From: Candidatus Buchananbacteria bacterium
GTDB lineage: Bacteria > Patescibacteriota > Patescibacteriia > Buchananbacterales > UBA6539
Reading direction: 5' to 3'
NCBI GenBank assembly: GCA_013359225.1
Contig: JABWCG010000001.1
Coordinates: forward strand, 70,410 to 134,409
DNA: 64,000 nt
The number at the start of each line of letters is the position of its first letter. Position 1 is the stretch's first letter. This document shows, piece after piece, positions 18,779 to 51,502 of this stretch. Under the pieces are notes generated by a model. The model saw only the letters and a list, made by a program, of their open reading frames with translations. It had not been told where the DNA came from and made no database searches. The position numbers and the translations under genes are program-made.

Positions 18779-18898
18779 TTTAGTAACACTTAGTACTCTT
18801 TTATTATTCTTTAATTTTTTAAAAATTAGCTTAAAAAGGGCTAATTTTGACTTTTTTAAAGAAAATCGTTATAGTATAGTCTGTTGCGGTTACCTAAC

Positions 18899-18927
18899 TG
18901 TAACGTTTTTTAAGCTCCTACGTCTTA
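18899..18927 (+). promoter_or_regulatory. ECF-sigma-type promoter motif, proximal copy, immediately upstream of the sigma-factor ATG.
   Basis: TGTAAC-N16-CGTCTTA. Resembles sigW/sigX-type AAC-N16/17-CGTC promoters. The predicted TSS is about 5-8 nt downstream, at or next to the ATG at 18932. Confidence 0.5.
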
Positions 18928-18931: not shown

Positions 18932-19495
18932 ATGAAATCCTCAAATTTCAAGGAAAAAGCCCTATTAATACGGATAAAAAAGAAGGACCCGCAGGCTTTT
19001 TCTGAAGTGTATGATTTGTACGTTACACCTATATATAGGTTTATTTATTTTAAGGTCGCAACCAAACAGGATGCTGAAGATTTGACCTCGGAAGTTTTTC
19101 TGAAGATCTGGCAATATGTAACCGAAACGGAAGAAGAAATCCAAAATCTGCGCGCACTATTGTACCGCACTGCCAGAAATTTGGTTATTGATTTTTATCG
19201 CCGCAATGCCAAACGGGACTTAACGCAGGATTTGGAAGTGCTGGAAACAATAAAAGATGAACGACAGCAAAGCCTCCTGACGCAGATTGATACGGCGTTT
19301 GACATGAAAAATATTGAAAGCATTTTGCGGCAGCTTAAAGATGAATATCGTGAAGTAATCATTTTACGTTTCATCGAAGAATTATCAATTACTGAAATTG
19401 CAAAAGTTTTAGAAAAATCAAAGGGTTCAGTTAGAGTGCTATTGCACCGGGCGCTAAAAGTCGCCAGAGAACTCCTCAACGAAGATGGAAAATAA
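18932..19495 (+). CDS. ECF-type sigma-70 family RNA polymerase sigma factor.
   Basis: Region 2 (…YRFIYFKVATKQDAEDLTSEVFLKIW…) and region 4 HTH (…ELSITEIAKVLEKSKGSVRVLLHRALK…). Confidence 0.85.
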   Translation: MKSSNFKEKALLIRIKKKDPQAFSEVYDLYVTPIYRFIYFKVATKQDAEDLTSEVFLKIWQYVTETEEEIQNLRALLYRTARNLVIDFYRRNAKRDLTQDLEVLETIKDERQQSLLTQIDTAFDMKNIESILRQLKDEYREVIILRFIEELSITEIAKVLEKSKGSVRVLLHRALKVARELLNEDGK

Positions 19496-20372
19496 CGTTA
19501 TTAACGAAATTAAAAATTTAAAACAACAAGTTGTTCCCCGAGCCGAATGGGTGAGTTCGACGCGGGATTTTTTGTTGCAGCAAATTGCAACTGATGCCGC
19601 TTCAGAAAAAGTTTCAGTTGGTATGACGGGATATTGGTCAATTTTTAACCAGACGTTTCGTCAGCGAATGTTTGAGCCGGCGCTGGTAATGATGTTGTTG
19701 TTAGTTTCTTTTGTTGGCAGCAGCCTGACAATCAATGCCGCTTTTTACAGTCTGCCGGGAGATAGTCTCTATAAAGTAAAATTAGCTTTAGAGCAAACGC
19801 ACGTGGCATTGGTGACTGACGAAGAAAAGAAAGTGGAGCTTAAGATGGAATTTGCTCAGAAGCGCGCAGTGGAATTTGATAAGATTGTTGCTCAGTCAGA
19901 TGTGTCCCCGGAAGCCAAGAAGAAAAAGATTGAAGAGGTGGTCAAGGAATTCAAAAATAATGTTGCTGAAGTAAATACTCATTTATCAAAAATTAACCAA
20001 GAAGCCCCAGAAGCGGATCGCAGTTTGAATGTTAAGATGGCATTAACGATTAGTGAAAAGACCGAAGAACTGGCGAAGAATATTGATAAGACCACTAGTA
20101 ACTTAGGTGAAGTTGATAAGAAAGAATTAGAAGGAATTTTAGCTGAGGCTGTACAGTCAGTTCAGGATGTTGGTTTGGCGGCTCAGCAACTAATTAATGA
20201 TGCGCAAATCCCAGCAGGAGATCAGGAAACCGGAGAAGTGCAGGGTGCAACTAACGATGCTGCTGAAACGCCTGAGACAGGGGATGCTAATAATACCGTT
20301 CAAGATGAAACAAAAACCGACGGCGCTACCGTCGAGGAGGTGGTTGAGCAAGTTGAGCCGGCAGGTAATTAA
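19485..20372 (+). CDS. Putative membrane-anchored anti-sigma factor.
   Basis: Overlaps the sigma-gene stop. Cytoplasmic N-terminal about 50 aa, one TM helix (ALVMMLLLVSFVGSSLTI), then an acidic coiled-coil-like extracytoplasmic domain. Confidence 0.5.
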   Translation: MENNVINEIKNLKQQVVPRAEWVSSTRDFLLQQIATDAASEKVSVGMTGYWSIFNQTFRQRMFEPALVMMLLLVSFVGSSLTINAAFYSLPGDSLYKVKLALEQTHVALVTDEEKKVELKMEFAQKRAVEFDKIVAQSDVSPEAKKKKIEEVVKEFKNNVAEVNTHLSKINQEAPEADRSLNVKMALTISEKTEELAKNIDKTTSNLGEVDKKELEGILAEAVQSVQDVGLAAQQLINDAQIPAGDQETGEVQGATNDAAETPETGDANNTVQDETKTDGATVEEVVEQVEPAGN

Positions 20373-20631
20373 TTTAGAAAACCCGGCCATTAATGGCTCG
20401 AGTTTTAAATAAAGTTCTTAATAATTTTTGGAGCAATTAGGGTCTAATCTCCCCTTGGACTGTTAAAGTAAAGGTCGGTTCGAGCTATTCGAAACTTTAA
20501 TGGACTAAGGATTCTGGAGTTAGATGGCCCCTTAAATAAGGGTCCGTATGATGTTATTAGGTTCGCCTAGGCGTAATATCATCTAAGCCTAACCGAGAAT
20601 ATTTAAGAGCTTAAGAAAGGAATAATTTAAC

Positions 20632-23600
20632 ATGATTAAAAGACTATTGACCTACGCTGTTGTTATTACAACCGTTGTCTGGTCAGTTGGTTTACTAGCC
20701 ACTCCGATTGCAGTTGGTGCTGCTGTCAGCGGTGACTTGATCAAGCTCCAGTGTGCTGCTGGTGCTGACGTCAACGATCCTTGCCGTGCAGTCTACTACT
20801 TGGGTGCTGATGGTAAGCGATATGTCTTCCCAAATGAGAAGACCTACAAAACCTGGTACTCAGACTTCAGCGGCGTTCAGACCGTTTCACAAACCGAAAT
20901 GAGTTCATACCCAATCGGTGGAAACGTTACGTACCGCCCAGGTGTCAAGCTAGTAAAAATTACTACTGATCCAAAAGTATATGCAGTCGGTTCCAATGGC
21001 ACCCTTCACTGGGTAACCACTGGCGAAATCGCCGAGGCTCTTTACGGAGCTACTTGGGCCACGATGGTCGAAGACGTTCCTGATGCCTTCTTCGTCAACT
21101 ACACTGTTGGTAGCGACATTAATGCTGCTGCTGACTACAACAAGCAGACTGAGATGGACAATGCTGCGACAATCAATGATGACAAGAACCTCGGTGGCGG
21201 CGCTTCAACTGGAACCAGCTTGAACGTTGCTTTGGCTTCTGACACCCCAGCTACCGGTTTAATTGTTGGTAATTCAATCAACAACAAATTCACCAAAGTG
21301 AATTTGACCGCTTCAGCTGACGGTGACATGGTCATTGACCAGCTCGTCGTCCGACGCGGTGGCACCATTGCTGCTGACAGTGCGTTCTCATCAATTGCTA
21401 TTATTGATGCTGCCACTGGCGCCAGAATTGGTAACACCAAAACCTTGAATTCACAGCATATGGCTGTCTTCAATGAAGACATCACCGTAGCCGCTGGTAC
21501 CACCAAGTCAATCTACTTGGCCGGTAACATGGCTGCTAGCCTAGCTACTAACGCTGGTGAAATCCCAACCCTCGACTTGTACTCAGTTACTTTGTCAGGT
21601 GGTGGCGCCGTTATCGGCAGCTTGCCAATCGTTGGTAATTACCAGACTTTGAACGGTACTATCACTATTGGTGCTTTGTCAGTTTCTGACGGCTCCAACA
21701 ACCCGGATGCTTCAACCCAGAAGATTGGTACAACTAACTACCTAGTTTCAGGTTTCAAGTTGGTTGCCAACTCAGTTGAAGACTTCCACGTCACTTCAAT
21801 CACCTTTGACCAGGGTGGTACTGCTGCAGACGATGACGTTAGCAACCTCGATCTTATCATCGACGACACTATCGTTAAGACTGTCGCTGCTCCATCAAAC
21901 GGCAAAGTGATGTTTGACTTGTCAGCCAGCCCAGTGTTGGTTGAAAAGGGTAAGACTGTTCAAGTCGACCTACAACTTGACATCGCCGACGGTTCAAGCC
22001 GAACTATTCGCTTTGACATTGAAGACGAGTCAGACATTGTAGCTCGCGGACAGCTTTACGGTGCAGAAGTTAAGGTATCTGACGGTGGCGCAGGTGCTGC
22101 ATCAGATGCTACCCCATTCTGGACTGCTCCAGTGACCACTGTTGATACTGGTTCTCTAAGAATTGGTGCTGCTACTTTGAGCGCTGCCAATATCCCAGAG
22201 GATTCAGATCAGGTTGTTTTGGGTAAGTTCGAATTCGAAGCTAAGGGTGAACCAGTTGAAATTTCTTCATTGCCGATTGGCTTTAGAATTGCTACTTCAA
22301 CAGGAAGTTTGGCAACTGACAGTGGAGTTGATTTGACCAACATCACTGTTTATGATGCGAACGGCGCGATTGTCGCTGGTCCATCTGACCCGACTTACAA
22401 GATTCACACCTCGGATTCCACCGCATTATTGCAAGTAACTTCAACCGACACCTTCACTGTTCCAACCGGTCTACACATTTACACCATTAAAGGTGACGTT
22501 GACTCAGACTTTGGCACCAACGACACAATCGTTGCCCATATTAAGCCAGGTCAGGTTACTGCTAAGGGTGAAACAACCGGTTTGACTGTGACCCCAACTC
22601 CAACCACCAGTGAATTGACCTCAGCTACCATGACTGTTCAGTCAGCCCAGTTAGCTGTTTCCGTTTCTTCATTGCCGGTTGCTCAGAGTGTGGTTGCTGG
22701 TACTAAAGGCTTCACCTTTGCCAACGTGGTCTTAGGTGCTGAATCTTCAGGAGAAGACATTAAAGTTACTTCTCTTAAGGTTCAGGTTGATTGTCTAGCT
22801 ACCTGCAGTCCTTCCCAGACTTCAAACTGGAGTCTCTACGATGGTGCGACCAAGTTGTCAGTCACCAACGATCCAGACTCACAGGTTGGAACCAAGACGA
22901 CTGCTGCTGATGATGCTACTTCAACCTTCAACCTCACCACTCCGTTGGTGATTGCGAAGGGTACTTCAAAGACTTTGACCGTCAAGGCTGATCTCAGCAC
23001 TGACGCCACTTCCGGCACAATCACTGTCGGTATTGAAGACACCACCAGCTCAACCATTACTGCTAAAGGTAACAACAGCGGTTTGGATGCTGCCTTAACT
23101 GTCAGCGTTTCAGACGGTCAGACAATGACCTTGAACTCAGGCGGTGCTTTGACCATCACCCGAGACACTACGTCTCCAAAAGATGGCCTATTGCCTGCTA
23201 ACTCCGAAGGTTTGACCTTCGCTGTGTTCAGCGCTGTTGCCCAGTACGAAGATGTAAATATTGAGAAGCTATACCTCACTGCAGTTCAGGCTAACAGCGG
23301 CGGTCTAGACCAGATCAATAAGGTTTACATCTACAACGGCAGCACCAAGTTGGCTGAAGTTACTCCAACTTCAACTGACGGTACTGACCGAACTGTCTTG
23401 ATCGATGTCACCAACAACCCAATCGTTGTTGCCAAGGACACTAGCGTTAAGTTGACCATCAAGGTTGACACCGCTAACTCCAACTACGAAGTCGGTTCAA
23501 AGGGTGCTTCTGGTCAGGGTCTATGGTTGAAGATTGCTTCCGCTGCTGATGTCACCGCTAAGGGTGCTCAGTCCGGAACAACTTTGGCCACAGCTGCGAA

Positions 23601-24354
23601 GACCATTAACAATGCTTCGTCAACTGCTCAGTACTTGTTCCGATCCGTCCCGACTCTTGCCACCAACGACTTATTGTCAAGTGGTAAGGTCTCAGGCGGT
23701 ACCTTAACTGCTGGTACTGAAGCTTCAAAGAGTTTGTACGCCTTCTCGGTGACTGCAGACTCAAAGGGTGACATTGCTTTGCATCGTGTCAACTTCAACA
23801 TTTCAACCAACGTCGCTACCATCACTAACATGATGATTACCGACGGTACTGAAAATGTTGCATACCAGTTGTCAGCCGGTTCAAGCTTTATCGGCACCAA
23901 CGATGCTGGCACTGATTCCTGGACTGGAGAAGCTCCGTTCTTCTTCGTCAACAATCAGACCGCCCCATCAGCGTACACCGGAACGAACGTTGTTCCTTAC
24001 GTCATTCCTGCCGGTACCACCAAGACCTTCACCCTTAAAGGTGATGTCCAGTGTGCCGCAGTTGGCGGAAGCGACTGTTCAACTTCAAGTGGAAGCGGAT
24101 CACTTAGTATCCAGATGCTCGGCGATACCTCATTGCTAGGTACCGTCCCAACTGGTGCTACTGCTCTTGCTGCCTCTGATGCTAAATTGGGTGACGCTGC
24201 ATTCGTCTGGTCAGATCTATGGCGAACCAGCATCCAGGGTATTTCATCAACAACCGCTTCAACCACCGAACAGTGGTCAAACGGTGCCTACGTTGCTTTG
24301 AGCAATGGCGGTAAGATGATTGCCACCTCTTCAGCTGTTACCTTCAGCCGCTAA
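20632..24354 (+). CDS. Large secreted repetitive surface protein (1240 aa). S-layer/cell-surface glycoprotein candidate.
   Basis: N-terminal signal/TM. About 30% Thr+Ser plus abundant Gly/Ala/Val. Recurring about 100-150-aa units that each end in …(V/I)TAKG(x)2SG…. About 240-nt leader. Strong terminator downstream. Confidence 0.7.
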   Translation: MIKRLLTYAVVITTVVWSVGLLATPIAVGAAVSGDLIKLQCAAGADVNDPCRAVYYLGADGKRYVFPNEKTYKTWYSDFSGVQTVSQTEMSSYPIGGNVTYRPGVKLVKITTDPKVYAVGSNGTLHWVTTGEIAEALYGATWATMVEDVPDAFFVNYTVGSDINAAADYNKQTEMDNAATINDDKNLGGGASTGTSLNVALASDTPATGLIVGNSINNKFTKVNLTASADGDMVIDQLVVRRGGTIAADSAFSSIAIIDAATGARIGNTKTLNSQHMAVFNEDITVAAGTTKSIYLAGNMAASLATNAGEIPTLDLYSVTLSGGGAVIGSLPIVGNYQTLNGTITIGALSVSDGSNNPDASTQKIGTTNYLVSGFKLVANSVEDFHVTSITFDQGGTAADDDVSNLDLIIDDTIVKTVAAPSNGKVMFDLSASPVLVEKGKTVQVDLQLDIADGSSRTIRFDIEDESDIVARGQLYGAEVKVSDGGAGAASDATPFWTAPVTTVDTGSLRIGAATLSAANIPEDSDQVVLGKFEFEAKGEPVEISSLPIGFRIATSTGSLATDSGVDLTNITVYDANGAIVAGPSDPTYKIHTSDSTALLQVTSTDTFTVPTGLHIYTIKGDVDSDFGTNDTIVAHIKPGQVTAKGETTGLTVTPTPTTSELTSATMTVQSAQLAVSVSSLPVAQSVVAGTKGFTFANVVLGAESSGEDIKVTSLKVQVDCLATCSPSQTSNWSLYDGATKLSVTNDPDSQVGTKTTAADDATSTFNLTTPLVIAKGTSKTLTVKADLSTDATSGTITVGIEDTTSSTITAKGNNSGLDAALTVSVSDGQTMTLNSGGALTITRDTTSPKDGLLPANSEGLTFAVFSAVAQYEDVNIEKLYLTAVQANSGGLDQINKVYIYNGSTKLAEVTPTSTDGTDRTVLIDVTNNPIVVAKDTSVKLTIKVDTANSNYEVGSKGASGQGLWLKIASAADVTAKGAQSGTTLATAAKTINNASSTAQYLFRSVPTLATNDLLSSGKVSGGTLTAGTEASKSLYAFSVTADSKGDIALHRVNFNISTNVATITNMMITDGTENVAYQLSAGSSFIGTNDAGTDSWTGEAPFFFVNNQTAPSAYTGTNVVPYVIPAGTTKTFTLKGDVQCAAVGGSDCSTSSGSGSLSIQMLGDTSLLGTVPTGATALAASDAKLGDAAFVWSDLWRTSIQGISSTTASTTEQWSNGAYVALSNGGKMIATSSAVTFSR

Positions 24355-24388
24355 TAGCGAAGCGAGAAGACTAACTAGTCTGTAACCT

Positions 24389-24420
24389 AAAAAGTCCCCT
24401 GCGAAAGTGGGGGACTTTTA
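24389..24420 (+). terminator. Rho-independent terminator after the surface-protein gene.
   Basis: Perfect 10-bp stem aaaagtcccc/ggggactttt, followed by a T-rich tract. Confidence 0.7.
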
Positions 24421-24464
24421 GGTTTGATTATTTCTGATTTTTTTGCTAAATTTAACTTATATTT

Positions 24465-26168
24465 ATGTTGAAATCGCTTTTAAAAATTAAATATCTTTTG
24501 CCAGCTATAGTCTTTGTGATAGCGGCGATTTTAATTTTTGGCGGCCTCACGCGAGCTGACGTTCAGCATGATGATGCAACGTATTCTTTCCGTTCGCTGG
24601 GCTATTTGGATTTTATGAATTCGCAGTTGCAAACCACGCCGTTACAGTGGTTTGAAACCGTTCCGACTTGGTCAAAACTGTCATTTCATGACCATCCACC
24701 ATTAACCTTTGCCCTGCAACATGTTTCTTTCAAGTTGTTTGGCCCGTCGCTGTTTGCGTCGCGCTTGCCTTCTGCGCTGGCCGGAGTGTTTTCGGTTGTT
24801 CTGTTATTTCTTATTGCTAAAAAACAGTATGATTTTAAAACGGCAGCTTTGGCCAGCGCTTTGTTGGGAGTACTAGCAATTCATTCCTGGATGAGTCAGA
24901 TTTCTTATTTAGAACCAGTTGCCGTTTTTCTGATTTTACTGACAGTATATTTATTTATCCTTGCTTTAGAAAAAGAAATATGGTGGCTTGGCTTTGGCGC
25001 CAGTTTGGGTTTAACGCTTTTAACTAAATACACAGTATTATTCATCATTCCGGCGCTGGCAATATATCTTTTATTGTATCACCGTAAAATATTTTTTAAT
25101 AAGTATTTTATTGTTTCTATGGTGTTGGCAGTTCTGATTTTTTCGCCGGTGGTGTACTACAATATCAAAATGTATCAAGCTCGCGGACACTTTGATTTGC
25201 AGCTTTCAGTGTTATTAAATCAGGATCGTTCTGATTGGCCGGGCATATCGCGCAACAGTGCCGGTGTTAATTTTCTTAACAACCTGACGACAATTTTTAA
25301 AGATTTATTTGCTGTTATCTCTTTACCAATGTATTTGATGCTTTGCTTTTTAACAATATATGGCGCCATTATGAGCTTTATTGAGCGTCAAAAAAACAAA
25401 ACCAATTTTATTTTTTTGCTGTTGTTGCTATTTGTAACAATTTTAATTGCCGTCACCGGCGCTGTTGTCCGATTCGATTATCTGCTGCTACCCTTTGTGG
25501 TGGTTATTGCTAGTTGGGCATCGTTTGATATTTATCAGCGTTATATCGCATCTCGGCCTGACCGGAAAGGACGAACGATTATTATCTTGCTGGCTTTGGG
25601 TGCAGTAATAGTATTTGAACTGTTTTACAACATTAATACTAATCTGCTCGCCATACCGCTTGGTGAGCGGGGTAGAGCATACTCGGAATACCGCTGGGAA
25701 AACGGCGGATTTAATGAGTTGGAAGAATATTTGATTAGTCAGGGTCTACATTTTGAAATCACCAATCACGTCGATTCTTTGAGCGACACGATGTTTCAGG
25801 CTGATCAGTTGTCCGGGCAAAAGGTTTTTGTCTATGATCCAAACTTGAATTGGTTTTCAACAATGTGGTATTTTTCAAAGTGGTCGGTGTACAATAGAGA
25901 GTTTTTTATTTCGGCAGCGGATTTGATGCGTATCTTGCCGAACACTAATTGGTTTGATTTCTTTAAGGAGCAGGGAGCTGAAACTATCTATTATATTCGG
26001 GGGGCAAATAAGGTTGTATTCGGCCCGGGTGAAGTAGAGGCGGTGAATCAGCAGTCGGCCAGCGCCTTGGAAAATATTTTTATTTCTTCTGGGGCCAAGG
26101 CGGATTTAGTCCGTAATGCAAATGATGATTTAGCTTTTAAAGTTTATAAAATTAATTTACAAGAGTAA
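24465..26168 (+). CDS. Glycosyltransferase family 39 (PMT/ArnT-like GT-C, polyprenyl-phosphate-sugar-dependent), paralog 1.
   Basis: Polytopic. N-terminal region …LSFHDHPPLTFALQHVSFKLFG…RLPSALAGV… is typical of GT39/GT83 proteins. Large C-terminal soluble domain. Confidence 0.65.
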   Translation: MLKSLLKIKYLLPAIVFVIAAILIFGGLTRADVQHDDATYSFRSLGYLDFMNSQLQTTPLQWFETVPTWSKLSFHDHPPLTFALQHVSFKLFGPSLFASRLPSALAGVFSVVLLFLIAKKQYDFKTAALASALLGVLAIHSWMSQISYLEPVAVFLILLTVYLFILALEKEIWWLGFGASLGLTLLTKYTVLFIIPALAIYLLLYHRKIFFNKYFIVSMVLAVLIFSPVVYYNIKMYQARGHFDLQLSVLLNQDRSDWPGISRNSAGVNFLNNLTTIFKDLFAVISLPMYLMLCFLTIYGAIMSFIERQKNKTNFIFLLLLLFVTILIAVTGAVVRFDYLLLPFVVVIASWASFDIYQRYIASRPDRKGRTIIILLALGAVIVFELFYNINTNLLAIPLGERGRAYSEYRWENGGFNELEEYLISQGLHFEITNHVDSLSDTMFQADQLSGQKVFVYDPNLNWFSTMWYFSKWSVYNREFFISAADLMRILPNTNWFDFFKEQGAETIYYIRGANKVVFGPGEVEAVNQQSASALENIFISSGAKADLVRNANDDLAFKVYKINLQE

Positions 26169-26169
26169 T

Positions 26170-26865
26170 ATGAAATTAAAATTAGCAAACAGTATTGGAG
26201 GGGCTTTGGTATTAATTGCCGTTATTGCCATTGGTGCATACTATTTTTTACCAAAAGATTTTTTGAAATTTACCGATTCGGCCAAAAACTATTTTGAATT
26301 AACTGTTTTGCGAGACGATTTGTCAGCTGAAGACTTGGCAAAGTATCAAGAACAATTTGATTTGGTGGTGGCCCAAATTCAGAGTAATCAGGATTATGTC
26401 GATCCGTGGTTTGATTTGGCTAGAATTAAAAAGTATGTGGGCGATTACCGCGGGTCTGAAGCCGCTTTAATTAAGGCGGGCGAAATTAGGCCAAATAACA
26501 GCACTTCTTTTACTAATTTGGCTGATTTGTATGCTAATTTCCTTGGGGAATATGATAAGGCCGAAATCGCTTACCAGACCGCCATTGCGAACTCTTTGGG
26601 AGAATGGGGTAACGATAAATTGTACCGTGAGTATGCTTATTTTGTGGAAAACCATCTCAAAGACCCTGCTCGGGCAACCTCAATTTTAGTTGACGGTTTA
26701 GAGGATAATCCTCAAAGTATTGATTTGATGACGGTATTAGCAGATCTTTATAAGCGTCAGGGTGACGTTGATAACGCGCTCAAGTATTATCGTGAGGCTT
26801 TGAAGATTGACCCAGAAGATGACGCGATTCGCCAAGAAATTAGCAATCTGCAAAACGCAAAGTAA
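26170..26865 (+). CDS. TPR-repeat protein with N-terminal TM anchor.
   Basis: Several 34-aa TPR-like repeats (…AEIAYQTAI…, …ALKYYREALKIDPED…). Confidence 0.7.
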   Translation: MKLKLANSIGGALVLIAVIAIGAYYFLPKDFLKFTDSAKNYFELTVLRDDLSAEDLAKYQEQFDLVVAQIQSNQDYVDPWFDLARIKKYVGDYRGSEAALIKAGEIRPNNSTSFTNLADLYANFLGEYDKAEIAYQTAIANSLGEWGNDKLYREYAYFVENHLKDPARATSILVDGLEDNPQSIDLMTVLADLYKRQGDVDNALKYYREALKIDPEDDAIRQEISNLQNAK

Positions 26866-26877
26866 GATATTTATTTC

Positions 26878-28539
26878 ATGAATAAAAAATTATTCAGCTA
26901 CTTACTGCTTGGCTTAATAATTTTTACCGCTGGTTTTTTACGTTTTTATCAGTTGGATCATTCTGATGTTATTAATGATGAAGCGATTATTGGTTTTCGC
27001 TCAATCGGGTATATTGATTTTTTCTCGTCGCCATATCAGACCACTCCTTGGGAGTGGTTTTCTGATGTCCCGGCCTGGGCGAGACTGTCATTTCATGATC
27101 ATCCGCCTTTAACGTTTGTGTTGCAGCACATTTCGTTTAAGCTGTTTGGACAAAACCTCTTTGCTTTGCGCTTGCCGTTTGCCCTGGCTGGTGTTGCTTC
27201 TGTTGTGTTGCTTTATCTGATCGCCAAAAATTTGTACGGCAAAAAGTCGGGCATCATTGCCGCCTTATTGCTAGCCGTTAGCAGCTACCACGTATGGGTA
27301 AGCCGAACCGGACTGCAGGAGGCGTTAGTTATTTTCTTTATCTTGTTAACGTTGTTCTTATTTTTGAAAGCTTTGGAAAATGGCCAACATTGGTGGTGGG
27401 GGATTAGTTTAGGGCTTGCGATGCTGACTAAATACACGACATTCATTTTGCCGCTGGGTTTTATTTGTTATTTATTTTTTTTCAAGCGGTCAGTTCTAGT
27501 TAATAAAAAATTTTGGCTGGCAATTTGTTTAGCGGCTTTAATTTTTAGCCCGGTCATTTTTTACAATATAAAAATGTACCAAACAGTTGGGCATTTTGAT
27601 TTGCAATTTTCGTATTTGTTTGGTCAGCAAGTTGCGGAGTGGCAGTCGTTACCTGGCAAAGAACAAATGGGAGATTTTATTGACCGCTTAAAAAATATCA
27701 TACCCGCGATCTACCAGGGATTCTTGTGGCCGATGTTTTTTATGCTGATTGCATCGTTTGGATTTTTAGGATTAAAGATTTTTAAATCAAGAGTTGATAA
27801 CGACGCTAAAAAAAATTGGTTGCCGGTTATTGCGATTATTTTCTATCTTTTATTCTTCTTATTAATTGGCCCGTCGAAAAGATTTGTGGTTATCTTGGTT
27901 CCTTTTGTTATTTTATTAATCGCTTGGTTTATCGGCAGTTTGCCACGAGCCGCAAGAATTATTTTATTGATAATTTTAATCCCGCTTGAAATATTTTTCA
28001 GTTGCAATACTTTATTGGCATATAACCCGATTGGTACAAGAGGCTTAACGTATTCTTATTTAGATATTGAAAATTATAATTGGGGGTATAATCAGCTTGA
28101 TTCGTACTTATCAAATATTTTGGCTGATAAAAAACCAGCATTTAGCCTGGAAACCAAGTATCCATTTTTAGAAACTATTCGTAAAAAATCGCTTAATGAA
28201 GCTAAAAATAAGTCGGAATTAGCGGCGTTAATTGTTTATGATCCAAATTTTTATGACCTTGCGACTTTTTGGACTTTTCATCGAAGATTAGTATATGCGT
28301 CTTGGCCAATTGTCAGCGCTGACGTGTATCTGCAGCAAGGAAAAGATTTTTGGCAATCCCAGGGGATTAGTGACGTTTATTTTTTCAAGATCAAAGACCC
28401 GCTGATTTTAAGCCAGTCAGTTACCGTTTTTTCCACCGCCGCTGAGGAGCTGGCGAATAGTTTTGATAGTATCCAGCCGGATATTATAAAGCGGCCTGAC
28501 GGCCGCGAGGTTTTTGAGGTGTACCACTGGCAATTTTAA
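26878..28539 (+). CDS. Glycosyltransferase family 39 (PMT/ArnT-like), paralog 2.
   Basis: …LSFHDHPPLTFVLQHISFKLFGQNLFALRLPFALAGV… is near-identical in motif layout to paralog 1. Confidence 0.65.
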   Translation: MNKKLFSYLLLGLIIFTAGFLRFYQLDHSDVINDEAIIGFRSIGYIDFFSSPYQTTPWEWFSDVPAWARLSFHDHPPLTFVLQHISFKLFGQNLFALRLPFALAGVASVVLLYLIAKNLYGKKSGIIAALLLAVSSYHVWVSRTGLQEALVIFFILLTLFLFLKALENGQHWWWGISLGLAMLTKYTTFILPLGFICYLFFFKRSVLVNKKFWLAICLAALIFSPVIFYNIKMYQTVGHFDLQFSYLFGQQVAEWQSLPGKEQMGDFIDRLKNIIPAIYQGFLWPMFFMLIASFGFLGLKIFKSRVDNDAKKNWLPVIAIIFYLLFFLLIGPSKRFVVILVPFVILLIAWFIGSLPRAARIILLIILIPLEIFFSCNTLLAYNPIGTRGLTYSYLDIENYNWGYNQLDSYLSNILADKKPAFSLETKYPFLETIRKKSLNEAKNKSELAALIVYDPNFYDLATFWTFHRRLVYASWPIVSADVYLQQGKDFWQSQGISDVYFFKIKDPLILSQSVTVFSTAAEELANSFDSIQPDIIKRPDGREVFEVYHWQF

Positions 28540-29672
28540 TTTTCGTAGACCGCTTTTGTTTTAGCGGTCATTTCTGATAAACTGAATTTCTCTGACATGT
28601 CGGCTTTTGCTTGGGCCGATATTTTTTTTGACAAATTTTCATCTTCTAAGATATTGTCAATTGCTTTTGCCAGTGCGTCGGGGTCTCCAGACTTAACCAC
28701 TAACGCATTTTTTTCATCAGTTAGTAATTCGGGAATACCTCCGACATTGGTGCTGGCAATAGGCAACCCGGCTTTCATGGCTTCAATAATTGAGTAGGGC
28801 AGACCCTCTTTGACAGACGAGCAGACATAAACATCAAACGCTGCTAGATATTGGGAAGCCTGTTCTTTTTCTCCGGCCAGCAAAAAGACGTCTTCTAGCT
28901 TCAGGTTTTTAATTTCGGTTGTTAATTGATTTCTTTGTTGGCCGTCGCCAATGACTACAAAAATGGTTTCTGGATGAAGTTTTGTTACAATATTAGCGGC
29001 TTGAATGAGCGTTTTTAGATCTTTGGTTAAATAAAAATTAGCGATTGTCCCGACAACTTTTTTATTGTCCGGCAAGTGTAGTTGTCGGCGCGCTTCTAGA
29101 CGCGGCAATAATTCAATGGTGTCCAAGCCGTTATGAACAGTGACAAGTTTATTAAGCGGGGCAATTTGGTTTTTGATAGCGCTTTTGCGATCGTAATCGG
29201 ATACGCAAATCAGAGTGTCTTTAAATCGAGCAGAAAATTTTTCGGCCACAAGATAAACAAATTTTTTCCACATCGGCATTGGCTCATTAAAGACAAAACC
29301 ATGGACTGTATATACTACTTTTTTAATTTTTGCACGTTTGGCAGCTAAGGCGCCAATAACTCCGGCCTTGCTACTGTTAAGATGAACGATGTCTGGACGT
29401 ATGGTCTTGATGAGTTTCTTAATTTCAAAATATGCGCGAACATCTTGCCAGGGGTTAATTTCTCGCACCAGATTTTTTAGGGTGTAACTTTTTATCTTTT
29501 TTTCGTCTAATTTAGTGAATAGATTTTTTCCGCGTCCGTCGAATTTTCCGGCGGCCACGGTGATTTCGTAGTTTTCCGGCATCAGCTGGCTGGCTAAATC
29601 AAAAATGTAGCGCTGTGCGCCGCCCCATTCCGCTTGTGTTACGATAAATAGAATTCTGTTTTTTTTAGCCAT
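28536..29672 (-). CDS. Glycosyltransferase family 4.
   Basis: GT-B with EX7E region (EGLPYSIIEAMKAGLPIASTNVGGIPELL). Convergent 4-nt stop overlap with the upstream GT39 gene. Confidence 0.8.
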   Translation of the reverse strand: MAKKNRILFIVTQAEWGGAQRYIFDLASQLMPENYEITVAAGKFDGRGKNLFTKLDEKKIKSYTLKNLVREINPWQDVRAYFEIKKLIKTIRPDIVHLNSSKAGVIGALAAKRAKIKKVVYTVHGFVFNEPMPMWKKFVYLVAEKFSARFKDTLICVSDYDRKSAIKNQIAPLNKLVTVHNGLDTIELLPRLEARRQLHLPDNKKVVGTIANFYLTKDLKTLIQAANIVTKLHPETIFVVIGDGQQRNQLTTEIKNLKLEDVFLLAGEKEQASQYLAAFDVYVCSSVKEGLPYSIIEAMKAGLPIASTNVGGIPELLTDEKNALVVKSGDPDALAKAIDNILEDENLSKKISAQAKADMSEKFSLSEMTAKTKAVYEN

Positions 29673-29694
29673 AAATTACTTATATTGAGCTTGA

Positions 29695-29718
29695 CCCCGT
29701 CACTCGCGAGTGACGGGG
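29695..29718. repeat. Perfect 24-nt GC-rich palindrome (ccccgtcactcg|cgagtgacgggg) flanked by direct TTGACC hexamers, in a divergent intergenic region.
   Basis: Read directly from the sequence. Lies 23 nt upstream of the minus-strand GT4 start and 75 nt upstream of the plus-strand epimerase start. Confidence 0.6.
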
Positions 29719-29792
29719 TTGACCAAAAGATGATTTTATATAATAATATTAAGGTAATTTTCCCTATTAATCAAGTCTTATTTTGCTAAATT

Positions 29793-30749
29793 ATGGTAAT
29801 TCTAGTGACCGGTGGAGCCGGTTTTATTGGCTCTCAAGTGACCAAGTCATTGCTGGAGCGAGGGGATCAGGTAATCATTGTAGACAATTTCAATAATTAT
29901 TACGAGCCCTTATTGAAGGAAGATCGTCTTAATCAGCTACTGGCCGGTTTTAAGCCAGTAGTTTACCGTTTAGATATTGCTGATCAGGTAAAATTGTCGG
30001 AAGTTTTTAAAAATCATAAGATTGATAAAATTTGTCACTTGGCGGCTCAGGCAGGTGTCCGTTATTCCCTGGAAAATCCTGGAGTGTATATTAAGAGCAA
30101 TATTATTGGCACCCATAACCTTTTGGAATTAGCGCGTGAATACAAGATTAAAGATTTTGTGTTTGCTTCTTCGTCTTCGGTGTATGGTGATAATGAAAAA
30201 ATACCTTTCGCCGAAACTGATGTTGTTGACCGGCCAATTTCATTATACGCTGCAACCAAAAAAGCCAATGAGCTTGAAGCATACACTTATCATAAATTAT
30301 TTGGGCTTAATGTTTTTGGTTTGCGGTTTTTTACTGTTTACGGGCCGTGGGGCCGACCGGACATGGCCTATTTTTTATTTACTAAGTCGATTTTGAGCAG
30401 CGAAGAGATAAAAGTTTTTAATCAAGGCAAGATGAAGCGTGATTTCACTTATATTGATGATATTGTCGCCGGTGTTGTTAAGGCGTTAGACCGAGTCGCT
30501 GGATATGAAATAATTAATTTAGGCAACAATCAACCGATTACGCTTGAGGAGTTTATTGGCGTGATTGAAAACGAACTTGGTAAGACCGCTAAGAAAAAAT
30601 ATGATGACCGCCAACCAGGTGACGTGATTGAAACGTACGCTGACATTACTAAAGCTAAAAGAGTTTTAGATTGGCAGCCATCAACTAGTATTAAAGCTGG
30701 ATTAAAAAAATTTATTGGGTGGTATAAGTCTTATTATCAAGTAGATTAA
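29793..30749 (+). CDS. NAD-dependent nucleotide-sugar 4-epimerase (UDP-GlcA/UDP-GlcNAcA 4-epimerase-like; TviC/WbpP/Cap1J family).
   Basis: GGAGFIGS Rossmann motif, YxxxK in YAATKKANE, and NYY(E/D)P signature. Confidence 0.8.
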   Translation: MVILVTGGAGFIGSQVTKSLLERGDQVIIVDNFNNYYEPLLKEDRLNQLLAGFKPVVYRLDIADQVKLSEVFKNHKIDKICHLAAQAGVRYSLENPGVYIKSNIIGTHNLLELAREYKIKDFVFASSSSVYGDNEKIPFAETDVVDRPISLYAATKKANELEAYTYHKLFGLNVFGLRFFTVYGPWGRPDMAYFLFTKSILSSEEIKVFNQGKMKRDFTYIDDIVAGVVKALDRVAGYEIINLGNNQPITLEEFIGVIENELGKTAKKKYDDRQPGDVIETYADITKAKRVLDWQPSTSIKAGLKKFIGWYKSYYQVD

Positions 30750-30752
30750 TCT

Positions 30753-32009: not shown

Positions 32010-32010
32010 C

Positions 32011-36363: not shown

Positions 36364-36366
36364 TAT

Positions 36367-39821: not shown

Positions 39822-39845
39822 TATTTTGATACTTATTGACACTTT

Positions 39846-40121
39846 ATGACACTTATTGATATAATAAGTGATATGTCAGAAGAAATTAAACCAAACGCTG
39901 TTTACACCACCGAAGAGGCAGAAAAACTGCTTAAAGTGAGTAACAGCACTATTAAACGGATGCTTAAACGTGGTCTGATTAAAGCCAATAAGGTTGGTCG
40001 ACAGTACCGGATTTTGGGCAAGGAGATTCTGCGGTTGGTATCGCCGGAAATTGAACAGCAGGCAATTAAGTCTTATTTGAGTATTAAAGGTAAGGTCGTT
40101 AATAAAATAAACAAATGGTAA
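39846..40121 (+). CDS. Small excisionase-like helix-turn-helix protein (HTH_17), embedded in the glycan operon.
   Basis: …YTTEEAEKLLKVSNSTIKRMLKRGLIKANKVGRQYRI…. 91 aa. Its 3' end overlaps the ABC exporter start. Confidence 0.55.
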   Translation: MTLIDIISDMSEEIKPNAVYTTEEAEKLLKVSNSTIKRMLKRGLIKANKVGRQYRILGKEILRLVSPEIEQQAIKSYLSIKGKVVNKINKW

Positions 40122-41923: not shown

Positions 41924-41926
41924 CGT

Positions 41927-42910: not shown

Positions 42911-42917
42911 AGTTATT

Positions 42918-44018: not shown

Positions 44019-44020
44019 TT

Positions 44021-44695: not shown

Positions 44696-44702
44696 AAAGA
44701 TT

Positions 44703-45314: not shown

Positions 45315-45316
45315 TT

Positions 45317-46387: not shown

Positions 46388-46389
46388 CT

Positions 46390-48367: not shown

Positions 48368-48371
48368 GCAT

Positions 48372-50415: not shown

Positions 50416-50423
50416 TCAATTTT

Positions 50424-51500: not shown

Positions 51501-51502
51501 TT

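What the first reader, a model, noticed from the sequence alone, without database searches (positions are those of the whole stretch)
20373..28539. Giant Thr/Ser-rich repetitive secreted protein immediately followed by two paralogous GT39 (protein-O-mannosyltransferase-like) genes and a TPR protein
The 1240-aa product (20632-24354) has a signal peptide and extreme Thr/Ser/Gly/Ala content. It contains about 100-150-aa repeat units ending in (V/I)TAKGxxSG, with a strong terminator after it. Directly downstream are two paralogous polytopic GT-C enzymes with the GT39/ArnT-type …LSFHDHPPLTF… loop (24465-26168, 26878-28539), separated by a TPR protein. PMT-family enzymes O-mannosylate Ser/Thr-rich secreted proteins from polyprenyl-phosphate-mannose, as in actinobacteria and eukaryotes. 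This layout suggests a dedicated S-layer or surface-adhesin O-glycosylation cassette, a second glycosylation route beside the en bloc system.
Basis: partly seen in the sequence, partly recalled or inferred. Interest (0 to 1): 0.72.

Follow-up and report, generated by a model that had tools for sequence, protein, structure and literature searches.

The report
Candidate glycosylated surface-layer protein locus
An uncultured ultra-small bacterium (Candidatus Buchananbacteria) encodes a conserved, probably very highly expressed, wall-anchored surface protein next to sugar-attaching membrane enzymes, which fits a glycosylated cell-surface coat, but the specific "protein O-mannosylation cassette" idea is not established.

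Summary
There is a 1240-aa secreted Thr/Ser-rich protein, a strong terminator, two paralogous polytopic PMT_2 GT-C enzymes (36.7% identical, both with the SFHDHPPL loop) and a membrane-anchored TPR protein between them. The repeats are six ancient ~150-180-aa cohesin/Ig-like beta-sandwich domains, not 100-150-aa units.

The GT-Cs are ArnT-like PMT_2 enzymes. They are not demonstrable GT39 mannosyltransferases: closest structure ArnT, no PMT_4TMC or MIR domain, far below every curated cut-off. Their adjacency to the big gene is restricted to part of the Buchananbacteria clade. Orthologues elsewhere sit beside a small GT2.

The universally conserved partners are an upstream ECF sigma factor and a DUF5667 membrane protein. 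A small TPR protein and a Wzy_C (PglL/WsaB-like) enzyme are often found downstream. In about 22 of 33 loci a GT-C or Wzy_C gene lies within 5 kb downstream.

The protein has a novel terminal wall-binding-type domain (4,342 clusters, no Pfam), the strongest codon bias in the window, a covarying structured leader and its own terminator. A ~28-kb glycan cluster follows.

Best reading: an S-layer-type glycoprotein locus, with the GT-Cs adding single sugars from lipid-phosphate donors.

The parts
18847..18924 (+). Tandem promoter-like elements upstream of the sigma gene: a sigma70-like TTGACT-17-TATAGT (18847-18875) and an ECF-type GTAAC-N16-CGTC (18900-18924).
   Evidence: sigma70-like site, 10 of 12 matches. 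(both blocks conserved in an alignment of 14 loci). (GTAAC-N15-18-CGTC sits about 32 nt before the sigma start codon in 18 loci from several lineages; chance expectation is 0.68 per 64 kb).
18932..19495 (+). ECF-type sigma-70 factor, 187 aa.
   Evidence: Pfam Sigma70_r2, Sigma70_r4_2 and Sigma70_ECF. NCBIfam superfamily TIGR02937 scores 87 bits against a cut-off of 42.9. Present upstream of the big gene in every full-length locus with enough flank.
19485..20372 (+). DUF5667 single-pass membrane protein, 295 aa. Its start overlaps the sigma stop by 11 nt. Candidate anti-sigma factor or sensor; this role is inferred, not shown.
   Evidence: PF18915 E 4.9e-10. One TM segment at aa 62-88. No Cys/His zinc motif. 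Conserved between the sigma gene and the big gene in almost all loci.
20424..20609 (+). Conserved structured RNA leader or intercistronic element of about 185 nt. It ends about 6 nt before the RBS GAAAGGAA (20615-22).
   Evidence: One nhmmer hit per locus, always directly upstream of the big gene, in the window and 16 clade loci plus a Logan copy of the window's own contig. 43 pairs in 7 helices; 87.7% of cells paired against 35-53% in slid controls; 28 pairs with compensatory changes against 11-16; 0 of 500 shuffles reach the observed values. No Rfam family at E<=1.
20632..20724 (+). Signal peptide or N-terminal anchor (aa 1-31) with the family-conserved motif T-x-x-W-S-x-G.
   Evidence: This motif was one of the two scan patterns.
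20731..21201 (+). N-terminal alpha/beta domain (aa ~34-190). A mobile, always terminal module, proposed to bind the cell wall or envelope.
   Evidence: AF2 pLDDT is mostly 80-93. No Pfam or PDB sequence match. 4,342 cluster representatives in 1.84 billion proteins, placed either just after a signal peptide or at the extreme C-terminus. Fused to cupredoxin, M23 peptidase or SH3_3 domains, or stand-alone.
21211..24135 (+). Six homologous cohesin/Ig-like beta-sandwich domains (aa ~194-1168). D2-D5 end in the (V/I)(T/V)A(K/R)G strand.
24136..24354 (+). Conserved C-terminal tail (aa ~1169-1240; F-x-W-S-D-L ... W-x-N-G) and the stop codon.
   Evidence: W1193 and N1217 are invariant and F1191, D1195, W1215 and G1218 nearly invariant in A1 (W1193 is also invariant in the 68-sequence A4). 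Shorter paralogues match both ends of the profile.
24390..24419 (+). Intrinsic terminator: 13-bp stem with 6 G-C pairs and flanking A/T runs.
   Evidence: An equivalent GC-rich hairpin follows the gene in most of the related loci folded.
24465..26168 (+). GT-C paralogue 1, 567 aa: PMT_2, ArnT-like architecture, about 12 TM segments plus a C-terminal alpha/beta domain.
26170..26865 (+). N-terminally membrane-anchored TPR protein, 231 aa. It starts 1 nt after GT-C 1, and GT-C 2 starts 12 nt after it.
   Evidence: A similar small TPR gene follows the big gene in 16 loci, including ones without any GT-C.
26878..28539 (+). GT-C paralogue 2, 553 aa: PMT_2, ArnT-like. D30, D34, H73, D74, H75, R98, E148 and K185 are invariant.
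   Evidence: AF2 pLDDT 87.6. Best structural match is ArnT 5f15, E 1.5e-9, TM 0.54.
28536..57100 (.). Glycan biosynthesis cluster: GT4 genes (28536-29672 on the minus strand; 32011-36363 and 37892-39037 on the plus strand), epimerase, UDP-Glc dehydrogenase, methyltransferases, an ABC exporter (40115-41923), and two NeuB plus two cytidylyltransferase genes (nonulosonic-acid synthesis).
   Evidence: Pfam scans.
57105..58496 (-). Bac_transf initiating phosphoglycosyl transferase (WbaP/WsaP type).
   Evidence: PF02397 E 5.4e-70.
58628..61114 (+). Wzy_C + TPR membrane protein, 828 aa: the candidate en-bloc O-oligosaccharyltransferase or ligase (PglL/WsfB-like).
   Evidence: PF04932 E 7.8e-16 plus TPR. 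The same family lies 100-4000 nt downstream of the big gene in 16 other loci.
63368..63832 (+). GtrA-family protein, a candidate polyprenyl-phosphate-sugar flippase. It is followed by the start of an epimerase/UXS-like ORF at the window edge.
   Evidence: PF04138 E 1.7e-25.. The order GtrA-epimerase-GT2 lies downstream of the big gene in L025.

Best explanation
The window is from a Candidatus Buchananbacteria (Patescibacteria/CPR) genome.

The protein. The 1240-aa ORF encodes a major cell-envelope protein of S-layer type. It has a Sec signal, an N-terminal ~150-aa wall/envelope-binding module, six homologous cohesin/Ig-like beta-sandwich domains and a conserved C-terminal tail.

Its expression. 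It is made at very high level. The evidence is the strongest codon bias in the window, a strong RBS, a covarying structured RNA directly upstream and its own strong terminator.

Its fixed partners. It is always encoded immediately after an autoregulated ECF sigma factor and a DUF5667 single-pass membrane protein. This pair is probably a sigma/anti-sigma pair that couples envelope state to expression.

The glycosylation machinery. The gene sits at the head of an S-layer-glycosylation-type locus. A glycan would be built on a polyprenyl carrier (Bac_transf, GT4s, nonulosonic-acid genes). It would be exported by the ABC transporter and transferred en bloc by the Wzy_C-TPR enzyme.

The GT-C pair. 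The two ArnT-like PMT_2 enzymes act at the outer face of the membrane with polyprenyl-phosphate monosaccharide donors. Most likely they add single sugars as a second decoration of that glycan or glycoprotein. Precedents are WsfH/WsfD in Paenibacillus alvei and GtrB/GtrA/GtrC. They are less likely to be the primary protein O-mannosyltransferase.

The small TPR protein. It is the protein-recognition accessory, like WsaA next to WsaB.

Shown: gene content, folds, repeats, synteny statistics, RNA covariation, codon bias.
Inferred: surface-layer role, glycosylation of this protein, donor and acceptor of the GT-Cs, anti-sigma role of DUF5667.
For: Family:
- More than 1,300 homologues. Every informative source name is a Patescibacteria lineage, apart from a few evidently mislabelled MAG records.
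- Length is fixed at about 1185-1292 aa, with full-length conservation down to about 26% identity.

Architecture:
- Anchor domain plus six beta-sandwich domains.
- This parallels SbsB, which has an N-terminal SLH anchor plus six domains (PMC12175726).
- The anchor-like module is terminal, is fused to M23 peptidase, SH3_3 or cupredoxin, and occurs in 4,342 clusters.
- Acidic and Thr/Ala/Val-rich, with few Cys.

Expression signals:
- Nc is 40.4, the lowest of 41 ORFs. ACG, TCG, GCG, GGG, CTG and ATA codons are almost absent.
- A conserved structured leader.
- A terminator in the window, with equivalent hairpins in most related loci folded.

Linkage:
- The sigma gene precedes the big gene in all 36 full-length loci with enough upstream flank, and DUF5667 lies between them in almost all.
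- The ECF-type autoregulatory promoter is conserved.
- Wzy_C lies downstream in 16 loci, GT-C in 8-9 and GtrA+GT2 in 5. A small TPR follows in 16.

GT-C enzymes:
- High-confidence GT-C fold with the conserved D..DE and HDHPP first loop.
- Orthologues elsewhere are paired with a small GT2, the usual partner that makes a lipid-phosphate sugar.
- A GtrA gene is in the window.

Precedent (PMC2943079):
- S-layer genes are monocistronic and lie near slg clusters.
- The O-OTases carry Wzy_C, with TPR either fused or encoded by a small adjacent gene.
- A separate lipid-carrier route adds a branching glucose.
Against: - There are no expression, proteomic, glycan or imaging data. 'S-layer' rests on analogy.
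- Codon bias was compared only within the window, which contains no ribosomal-protein reference.
- Dedicated ECF control is unusual for S-layer genes. The ECF promoter motif was not found upstream of the big gene, so how the sigma factor relates to it is open.
- Six loci show neither GT-C nor Wzy_C within 5 kb downstream.
- No GT2 was found in the window.
- Wzy_C domains also occur in polymerases and in ligases for non-protein acceptors.
- Tandem beta-sandwich stalks are equally typical of fibrillar adhesins (one search hits include adhesin stalk domains).
- AF2 pTM is only 0.56, so the inter-domain arrangement is uncertain.
Confidence: 0.45

Rival explanations
1. The two GT-C paralogues, possibly as a heterodimer like Pmt1-Pmt2 and helped by the TPR protein as in eukaryotic TMTC enzymes, directly O-glycosylate Ser/Thr of the big protein. 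They would use polyprenyl-phosphate-hexose during or after Sec export. This would be a dedicated second protein-glycosylation route.
For: - Both proteins pass the Pfam PMT and PMT_2 thresholds.
- A D-E/D-D pair directly after TM1 and an invariant first extracytoplasmic loop, as in PMTs and ArnT.
- Pmt4 and Pmt1/2 are among the structural matches.
- The GT-C genes flank a TPR gene with 1- and 12-nt spacers, immediately after a Thr/Ser-rich secreted protein.
- GT-C, TPR and big genes stay close in several different arrangements within the clade: L008, L014, L016, L019. This argues for some selection on proximity.
- CPR bacteria lack lipid A (established knowledge), so the ArnT acceptor is unavailable.
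Against: - ArnT is the closest solved relative by sequence and by fold.
- No PMT_4TMC or MIR domain.
- 22 bits against the 800-bit cut-off of the bacterial Pmt equivalog.
- Adjacency is limited to 8-9 of about 33 loci, and the slot is otherwise taken by Wzy_C.
- Orthologues in other lineages show no big-protein homologue in the 8 kb either side.
- The TPR gene accompanies the big gene even where no GT-C is present.
- A terminator separates the big gene from the GT-C genes.
- The S/T residues lie in folded domains, not in the disordered S/T/P tracts typical of PMT substrates.
- No GT2 donor synthase lies nearby.
Confidence: 0.2
2. The GT-C pair has nothing specific to do with the big protein. 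It glycosylates another envelope acceptor, such as a teichoic-acid-like or secondary wall polymer, a lipoglycan or a membrane lipid. Models are ArnT, YfhO, GacL or the mycobacterial arabinosyl/mannosyltransferases. It sits here only because this is the edge of a glycan gene cluster and gene order is inherited within the clade.
For: - The family is widespread in Patescibacteria independently of the big gene, and is there paired with GT2.
- Architecture and nearest fold are ArnT-like.
- The big gene is transcriptionally insulated from them.
- Five clade loci lack any GT-C within 10 kb.
- The conserved minus-strand GT4 and the following sugar genes show that the whole region is syntenic across the clade.
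Against: - The slot next to the big gene is repeatedly filled by some extracytoplasmic glycosyl-transfer enzyme in distant lineages. Clade-level synteny alone does not explain this.
- The rearranged but still adjacent layouts within the clade.
- A wall polymer made by this locus could itself be the ligand of the N-terminal domain, so 'unrelated' may be too strong.
Confidence: 0.2
3. The big protein is not a lattice-forming coat. It is a wall-anchored fibrillar adhesin or spacer about 25-30 nm long, used by the episymbiont to contact hosts or substrates, and it is switched on by the ECF sigma factor in response to an envelope or contact signal. Glycosylation may still occur.
For: - Dedicated ECF/anti-sigma-like regulators upstream.
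- Shorter paralogues share the N- and C-terminal ends but have fewer repeats.
- CPR bacteria are widely considered episymbionts (established knowledge).
Against: - Copy number and length are fixed across classes at 26-68% identity. Adhesins usually vary in repeat number and evolve fast.
- There is no distinct tip adhesive domain, only a 70-aa tail.
- The codon bias is the strongest in the window.
- The ECF motif is absent from the big gene's upstream region.
Confidence: 0.25

Closest known systems
S-layer glycoprotein loci of Gram-positive bacteria (Geobacillus stearothermophilus sgsE + slg cluster wsaA-wsaP; Paenibacillus alvei spaA + wsf locus)
   Same: - A monocistronic surface-protein gene lies close to a glycan cluster.
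- The cluster has a WbaP-type initiating transferase, cytoplasmic GTs, methyltransferases, an ABC exporter and a Wzy_C O-oligosaccharyltransferase.
- TPR is either fused to the Wzy_C enzyme or encoded by a small adjacent gene (wsaA).
- A separate lipid-carrier route (WsfH/WsfD) adds a branching monosaccharide.
Source: PMC2943079. Window content.
   Different: - The organism is a CPR bacterium.
- The structural protein has no SLH or CWB2 domain. It has an undescribed terminal domain instead.
- A conserved ECF sigma/DUF5667 pair and a structured RNA precede it.
- Two GT-C paralogues are present.
- The cluster makes nonulosonic acids rather than rhamnan.
- Nothing has been shown experimentally.
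SbsB of G. stearothermophilus and other multi-Ig S-layer proteins (D. radiodurans HPI)
   Same: An N-terminal wall-anchoring module followed by six consecutive beta-sandwich domains (PMC12175726; model).
   Different: - No detectable sequence similarity.
- The domains are larger (150-180 aa) and cohesin-like.
- Lattice formation has not been tested.
ArnT (GT83, lipid A 4-amino-4-deoxy-L-arabinose transferase)
   Same: - Best sequence-profile and structural match.
- The same overall build: a polytopic GT-C(A) core plus a ~170-aa C-terminal soluble domain.
- A polyprenyl-phosphate monosaccharide donor is expected.
- Orthologues are paired with an ArnC-like small GT2.
   Different: - 13-14% identity.
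- 22-32 bits against a 567-bit cut-off.
- CPR bacteria have no lipid A, so the acceptor must differ.
Protein O-mannosyltransferases (GT39: yeast Pmt1/2/4, actinobacterial Pmt) and TPR-bearing TMTC enzymes
   Same: - GT-C(A) fold.
- An acidic pair after TM1.
- The Pfam PMT threshold is passed.
- Paralogue pairs (Pmt1-Pmt2) and TPR-assisted protein recognition (TMTC) offer a mechanistic analogy.
   Different: - No PMT_4TMC or MIR domain.
- More distant than ArnT.
- The TPR is a separate gene whose presence tracks the big gene, not the GT-C.
Three-component glycan modification systems (GtrA/GtrB/GtrC; CsbB/YfhO; GacI/GacL)
   Same: - A GT2 makes the lipid-phosphate sugar, a GtrA-type flippase moves it, and a polytopic GT-C transfers a single sugar outside the membrane.
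- GtrA is present in the window.
- GtrA and GT2 lie downstream of the big gene in L020-L026.
   Different: - The GT-Cs here belong to PMT_2, not to the GtrC or YfhO families.
- The GT2 partner was not found in the window.

Membership tests
GT39 protein O-mannosyltransferase (PMT) | Pfam PMT (PF02366) N-terminal domain above the gathering score | tested here: met
   42.5 and 46.3 bits against a cut-off of 22.7. PMT_2 (PF13231) scores much higher, 91 and 113 bits, over the same region.
GT39 protein O-mannosyltransferase (PMT) | C-terminal four-TM PMT_4TMC module (and a MIR domain in eukaryotes) | tested here: not met
   No such Pfam hit at E<=0.01. The model shows a soluble alpha/beta C-terminal domain instead.
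GT39 protein O-mannosyltransferase (PMT) | Match to the curated bacterial Pmt equivalogs (NF058602, NF052499) | tested here: not met
   22.4 bits against 800, and 22.8 bits against 900.
GT39 protein O-mannosyltransferase (PMT) | Acidic DE motif in the first extracytoplasmic loop | tested here: met
   N-D-E-A in paralogue 2 and H-D-D-A in paralogue 1, directly after TM1. D34 is invariant and E35 nearly invariant in 24 sequences. ArnT-type enzymes share this motif, so it does not discriminate.
GT39 protein O-mannosyltransferase (PMT) | Transfers mannose from polyprenyl-phosphate-mannose to protein Ser/Thr | not testable with these tools
   Needs biochemistry or glycoproteomics.
GT83 ArnT | Match to the curated ArnT equivalog (NF009784) | tested here: not met
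   32.4 and 22.3 bits against 567.
GT83 ArnT | ArnT-like fold and domain build | tested here: met
   Best Foldseek hits are 5f15 and 5ezm: E 1.5e-9, TM 0.54-0.55 in both directions. Best profile hit is 5ezm, E 8.6e-5.
GT83 ArnT | Lipid A acceptor present in the organism | not tested
   No LPS genes were seen in the window. Absence of lipid A in CPR bacteria is prior knowledge and was not tested here.
GT-C superfamily, PMT_2 (PF13231) | Full-length PMT_2 domain and a polytopic GT-C(A) fold | tested here: met
   Profile positions 1-160 of 160 matched, E 1e-26 to 1e-32. pLDDT 87.6 and pTM 0.89. Structural matches to ArnT, AglB, STT3, Pmt4 and ALG9/12.
S-layer glycosylation (slg-type) locus | Surface-protein gene near a cluster with an initiating PGT, cytoplasmic GTs, an exporter and a Wzy_C transferase (TPR fused or adjacent) | tested here: met
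   compared with PMC2943079.
S-layer glycosylation (slg-type) locus | The structural protein forms a 2-D lattice and carries the glycan | not testable with these tools
   Needs cryo-ET and glycoproteomics.
ECF sigma / anti-sigma pair | Sigma2 + sigma4 domains only, and an autoregulatory ECF-type promoter | tested here: met
   GTAAC-N16-CGTC lies about 32 nt before the start codon in 18 loci.
ECF sigma / anti-sigma pair | The co-transcribed partner carries a recognisable anti-sigma domain (ASD/ZAS) | tested here: not met
   Only DUF5667 was detected. There is no zf-HC2 or RskA hit and no H-x3-C-x2-C motif. The topology (about 60 cytoplasmic residues, one TM, an extracytoplasmic domain) and the 11-nt gene overlap are compatible with an anti-sigma role.
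Known Rfam RNA families | Leader matches a described family | tested here: not met
   No relevant match at E<=1 in 18200-24600.

The most novel reading that the evidence does not exclude
This ~1,240-aa family would be the molecular identity of the surface layer of Paceibacteria-type CPR bacteria. Four features would go with it:
- It is tethered by a previously undescribed wall-binding domain that also tethers peptidases and cupredoxins.
- It is glycosylated by two routes: Wzy_C transfers a glycan en bloc, and the ArnT-like GT-Cs add single sugars.
- Its synthesis is coupled to envelope state by a dedicated ECF sigma/DUF5667 pair.
- It is controlled through a new class of structured RNA (three-way junction, invariant AAAGGTCG loop) that acts as a stabiliser or a ligand- or protein-responsive switch.
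Probability: 0.25. Interest if true: 0.75.

Novelty: new variant of a known kind. Interest (0 to 1): 0.55.

Why it matters
CPR/Patescibacteria make up a large share of bacterial diversity. Their cell envelopes are known almost only from images, and no major envelope protein, wall-anchoring domain or protein-glycosylation system has been assigned in Paceibacteria-type lineages. I found no literature on this family or on DUF5667.

If this family is the coat protein, it gives several usable handles:
- A marker for cryo-ET and metaproteomics.
- A new anchoring domain with 4,342 clusters and no Pfam entry.
- A test case for how monoderm ultra-small bacteria glycosylate their surface.
- A candidate new cis-regulatory RNA.

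For the scan itself, the lesson is that 'glycosyltransferase family 39' labels on PMT_2 proteins should not be read as protein O-mannosyltransferases.

Tried and rejected
- BLASTP self-comparison of the big protein found no internal repeats. They appeared only with profile-profile comparison.
- Pfam and NCBIfam scans of the big protein found nothing.
- PDB sequence searches: the big-protein profile found nothing useful. Single-sequence GT-C found nothing. Only the GT-C profile reached ArnT and Pmt1.
- The search for related loci with the 18-sequence alignment failed because no stretch was conserved enough. It worked with 9 closer sequences.
- The look-up of encoding contigs for the window's own big protein and GtrA returned only 1-4 kb Logan contigs. 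I therefore could not read beyond the window end to look for the GT2 partner.
- Foldseek of the 1200-aa model gave only generic Ig-string hits with TM about 0.1.
- The ECF promoter motif GTAAC-N15-18-CGTC was sought upstream of the big gene and not found in any locus. I therefore dropped the simple idea that the sigma factor directly drives the big gene from its own motif.
- A second + strand match at 29484-29507 lies upstream of the + strand sugar-cluster genes but inside the minus-strand GT4 ORF. A + strand match at a roughly similar offset from the sigma gene recurs in only one close relative (L012) and may be chance.
- No sigma70-type promoter passed the scan in 20373-20631. A weak TAAAAT-like block precedes the leader in the alignment.
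- Rfam gave no family for the leader.
- Literature searches for DUF5667, PMT_2 + Patescibacteria, and CPR S-layer proteins gave nothing specific.
That rejection rests on prior knowledge only.

Full report
**What is there**

The region contains a co-directional gene row on the + strand:
- ECF sigma factor, 18932-19495.
- DUF5667 single-pass membrane protein, 19485-20372, overlapping the sigma stop by 11 nt.
- A 259-nt non-coding stretch.
- The 1240-aa ORF, 20632-24354.
- A hairpin terminator, 24390-24419.
- PMT_2 GT-C 1, 24465-26168.
- A membrane-anchored TPR protein, 26170-26865.
- PMT_2 GT-C 2, 26878-28539.

The exact big protein is deposited as a hypothetical protein of a Candidatus Buchananbacteria MAG, which belongs to the Patescibacteria/CPR.

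**Check of the observation**

Composition, signal-like N-terminus, terminator, the two paralogues (36.7% identical), the shared S-F-H-D-H-P-P-L loop (invariant or nearly so in 24 homologues) and the intervening TPR gene are all real.

Three points need correction:
- Repeat spacing. The (V/I)TAKG motif recurs every 165-173 aa.
- Repeat nature. BLASTP sees no repeats. Slices of a 68-sequence alignment are mutually homologous by hhalign at 80-99.5% probability. The AlphaFold2 model (aa 41-1240, mean pLDDT 88.7) shows six beta-sandwich domains after an alpha/beta N-terminal domain.
- Composition. S+T is 20.6-25.4% in all 68 homologues. It is spread through folded domains, with no S/T tract longer than five residues. 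The protein is acidic. This is the composition of a beta-rich surface protein, not a mucin-like glycosylation tract.

**The big protein family**

- More than 1,300 homologues were found. Every informative source name is a Patescibacteria lineage.
- Length stays between about 1185 and 1292 aa, with conservation over the full length.
- There is no Pfam, NCBIfam or PDB sequence match.
- Foldseek returns only generic strings of Ig-like or macroglobulin-type domains.

**The N-terminal domain (aa ~34-190)**

It is a separate, mobile module.
- It occurs in 4,342 cluster representatives of a 1.84-billion-protein library.
- It is always terminal: either just after a signal peptide or at the extreme C-terminus.
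- It is fused to cupredoxins, an M23 peptidase or an SH3_3 protein, or it stands alone.

This is how wall-binding modules such as SLH or CWB2 behave. I therefore infer an envelope-tethering role.

**Signs of very high expression and insulation**

- Codon bias. The gene has the lowest effective number of codons of 41 window ORFs (40.4, median about 50). ACG, TCG, GCG, GGG, CTG and ATA are almost absent.
- RBS. A GAAAGGAA ribosome-binding site precedes the start codon.
- Terminator. GC-rich hairpins like the window's follow the gene in most of the 19 related loci I folded.
- Structured RNA. The ~185 nt before the RBS are conserved at that position in the window and 16 related loci. They fold into seven helices: 87.7% of cells are paired against 35-53% in slid controls, and 28 pairs show compensatory changes against 11-16. 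None of 500 shuffles reaches these values. No Rfam family matches.
- The hairpin after the DUF5667 gene has no U-tract. The element may therefore be a 5' leader, or an intercistronic processing and stabilising element of a read-through transcript.

**Linkage test**

I fetched 80 loci from GTDB representative genomes and searched their ORFs with the window's proteins and profiles.
- Upstream. The sigma gene precedes every full-length homologue with enough upstream flank (36 of 36), down to 26-30% identity. DUF5667 lies between them in all but two; those two may simply be too divergent for the search.
- Sigma promoters. The sigma gene carries a conserved sigma70-like promoter plus an ECF-type GTAAC-N16-CGTC about 32 nt before its start codon in 18 loci. 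That motif is absent upstream of the big gene.
- GT-C. A gene of this family lies within 5 kb downstream in only 8-9 of about 33 loci, all in the close Buchananbacteria clade. Five sister loci have none within 10 kb.
- Wzy_C. In the four of those sister loci that were checked, and in many distant lineages, the slot is filled by a Wzy_C (O-antigen-ligase/PglL-like) protein. It is TPR-fused where checked (L015, the window) or preceded by a small TPR gene (L009). Sixteen loci show this, and one has four tandem copies.
- GtrA + GT2. Five further loci have these downstream.
- Small TPR. A small anchored TPR gene follows the big gene in 16 loci, with or without GT-C.

The conserved core is therefore sigma, DUF5667, big protein and often TPR, followed by a variable extracytoplasmic glycosyl-transfer enzyme.

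**The GT-C enzymes**

- Both are full-length PMT_2 proteins.
- NCBI calls them 'glycosyltransferase family 39 protein' and JGI calls relatives 'Ara4N transferase-like'. Both are generic labels.
- Scores against curated ArnT and Pmt equivalogs are 22-32 bits, against cut-offs of 567-900.
- A 24-sequence profile reaches ArnT (E 8.6e-5) before Pmt1 (E 4e-3).
- The AF2 model (pLDDT 87.6, pTM 0.89) is closest to ArnT (TM 0.54), followed by AglB, STT3, Pmt4 and ALG9/12.
- There is no PMT_4TMC or MIR domain.
- Conserved residues fit an active GT-C(A) enzyme: D30, D34-E35 after TM1, H73-D74-H75-P76, R98, E148 and K185.
- Orthologues at about 40% identity in complete Niyogibacteria and Sungiibacteria genomes sit next to a 234-243-aa GT2, the usual maker of polyprenyl-phosphate sugars. 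No large surface-protein gene appears within 8 kb on either side.
- The window holds a GtrA gene (63368-63832) but no GT2. The window ends in an epimerase start. In L025 the same order continues into a GT2.

**The wider locus**

From 28.5 to 63.8 kb the window encodes:
- GT4 transferases, methyltransferases and an ABC exporter;
- UDP-glucose dehydrogenase;
- two NeuB and two cytidylyltransferase genes for nonulosonic acids;
- a Bac_transf initiating enzyme;
- a Wzy_C-TPR protein;
- a subtilase with FG-GAP repeats;
- GtrA.

This matches the described S-layer glycosylation loci of Geobacillus and Paenibacillus in several respects (PMC2943079):
- The structural gene is monocistronic and nearby.
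- The initiation enzyme is of WbaP type.
- An ABC exporter is present.
- The O-oligosaccharyltransferase carries Wzy_C, with TPR either fused or supplied by a small adjacent gene (wsaA).
- A separate lipid-carrier route (WsfH/WsfD) adds a branching glucose.

The protein's build, an anchor plus six beta-sandwich domains, parallels SbsB (PMC12175726).

**Most likely mechanism (inference)**

1. The protein is exported by Sec and tethered through its N-terminal domain. It forms or contributes to the outermost envelope layer.
2. The locus glycan is assembled on a polyprenyl carrier, exported, and transferred by the Wzy_C-TPR enzyme.
3. The two ArnT-like GT-Cs add single sugars from polyprenyl-phosphate donors at the outer face. 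The acceptor is most likely that glycan or glycoprotein.
4. The small TPR protein recognises the protein substrate.
5. The sigma/DUF5667 pair couples envelope state to expression. The route is unresolved, because its promoter motif is missing before the big gene.

I put this composite reading at 0.45.

Alternatives:
- An unrelated wall or lipid acceptor for the GT-Cs: 0.2.
- A fibrillar-adhesin role for the protein, which is compatible with any of the glycosylation models: 0.25.

**Verdict**

The sequence observation is essentially right. The general idea of a surface protein with neighbouring glycosylation machinery gains comparative support. The specific GT39 O-mannosylation cassette is not established.

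The locus is best described as a CPR variant of an S-layer-glycoprotein locus. Three undescribed components are worth follow-up: the protein family, the terminal anchoring-type domain, and the structured RNA.

Noticed in passing
window 20424-20609 (+): A conserved ~185-nt structured RNA lies directly upstream of the big gene's RBS. It has a closing stem (TTTTTGG..TTAGG paired with CCTAACCAAAAA), an arm with an invariant AAAGGTCG loop, a variable hairpin and a conserved GATGTTGTTA..TAACAATATC hairpin. Covariation is strong and no Rfam family matches. It is found only in the Buchananbacteria-like clade.
   Followed up: yes
window 20731-21201 (+), aa ~34-190 of the big protein: An undescribed ~150-aa alpha/beta domain with no Pfam entry. 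It is present in 4,342 protein clusters and is always terminal. It is fused to cupredoxins, M23 peptidase or SH3_3, or stands alone. It is a candidate Patescibacteria cell-wall-binding module.
   Followed up: partly
window 18847-18924 (+) and the equivalent position in L003-L039: Tandem promoters lie before the ECF sigma gene: a sigma70-like TTGACT-17-TATAGT, then an ECF-type TGTAAC-N16-CGTC that starts about 32 nt before the start codon. The ECF motif holds this position in 18 loci from several lineages, which implies autoregulation and a nearly leaderless mRNA.
   Followed up: yes
window 29484-29507 (+); L012 19464-19489: A second GTAAC-N-CGTC match lies on the + strand about 290 nt before the first gene of the sugar cluster, but inside the minus-strand GT4 ORF. 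A + strand match at a roughly similar distance from the sigma gene occurs in one close relative. It could be an ECF target promoter or chance.
   Followed up: partly
window 20632-24354: The gene has the strongest codon bias of 41 window ORFs (Nc 40.4). NCG, GGG, CTG and ATA codons are almost absent. GC3 is 0.48, against roughly 0.36-0.43 for most other window ORFs.
   Followed up: yes
window 41927-55233: Two NeuB paralogues (45317-46387, 50424-51500) and two CMP-sugar cytidylyltransferase genes (44021-44695, 54382-55233) sit with PseB-like and aminotransferase genes. This looks like two nonulosonic-acid pathways in one CPR glycan cluster.
   Followed up: no
window 58628-63365: The Wzy_C-TPR protein overlaps by 23 nt the start of an S8 subtilase that carries FG-GAP repeats (61092-63365). 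This could be a surface-protein processing enzyme.
   Followed up: no
L029 about 6000-14900: Four tandem Wzy_C-family genes lie directly downstream of the big-protein homologue in one Patescibacteria MAG.
   Followed up: no
L052-L058 about 9900-13200; L023, L025, L026 downstream of the big gene: Tandem arrays of two or three shorter paralogues (about 180-660 aa) share similarity with the big protein, mainly its N-terminal domain. This points to a family of wall-tethered proteins of graded length.
   Followed up: partly
L015 17445-21765: Downstream of the TPR and Wzy_C genes lie a 953-aa CotH-kinase + beta-helix protein, a VTC-domain protein and a DUF4956 protein.
   Followed up: no
window 11390-15700: A type IV pilus-like gene set lies a few kb upstream of the locus: a PilT/T2SSE ATPase, an N-methyl pilin at 13583-14065, and DUF5656.
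   Followed up: no
record titles of L010, L013, L015, L028 and others: Many MAG records titled 'uncultured Gammaproteobacteria bacterium' (binchicken / SRP co-assemblies), and single Acidobacteriota, Methylomirabilis and Acutalibacteraceae bins, carry this Patescibacteria-specific locus. The likely cause is placeholder taxonomy or bin contamination.
   Followed up: no
big protein aa 14-20 (window 20671-20691): The hydrophobic core of the signal or anchor segment carries a family-conserved T-x-x-W-S-x-G motif. Such conservation is unusual for a signal peptide. The five domain-sharing proteins I read lack the motif. No explanation so far.
   Followed up: partly
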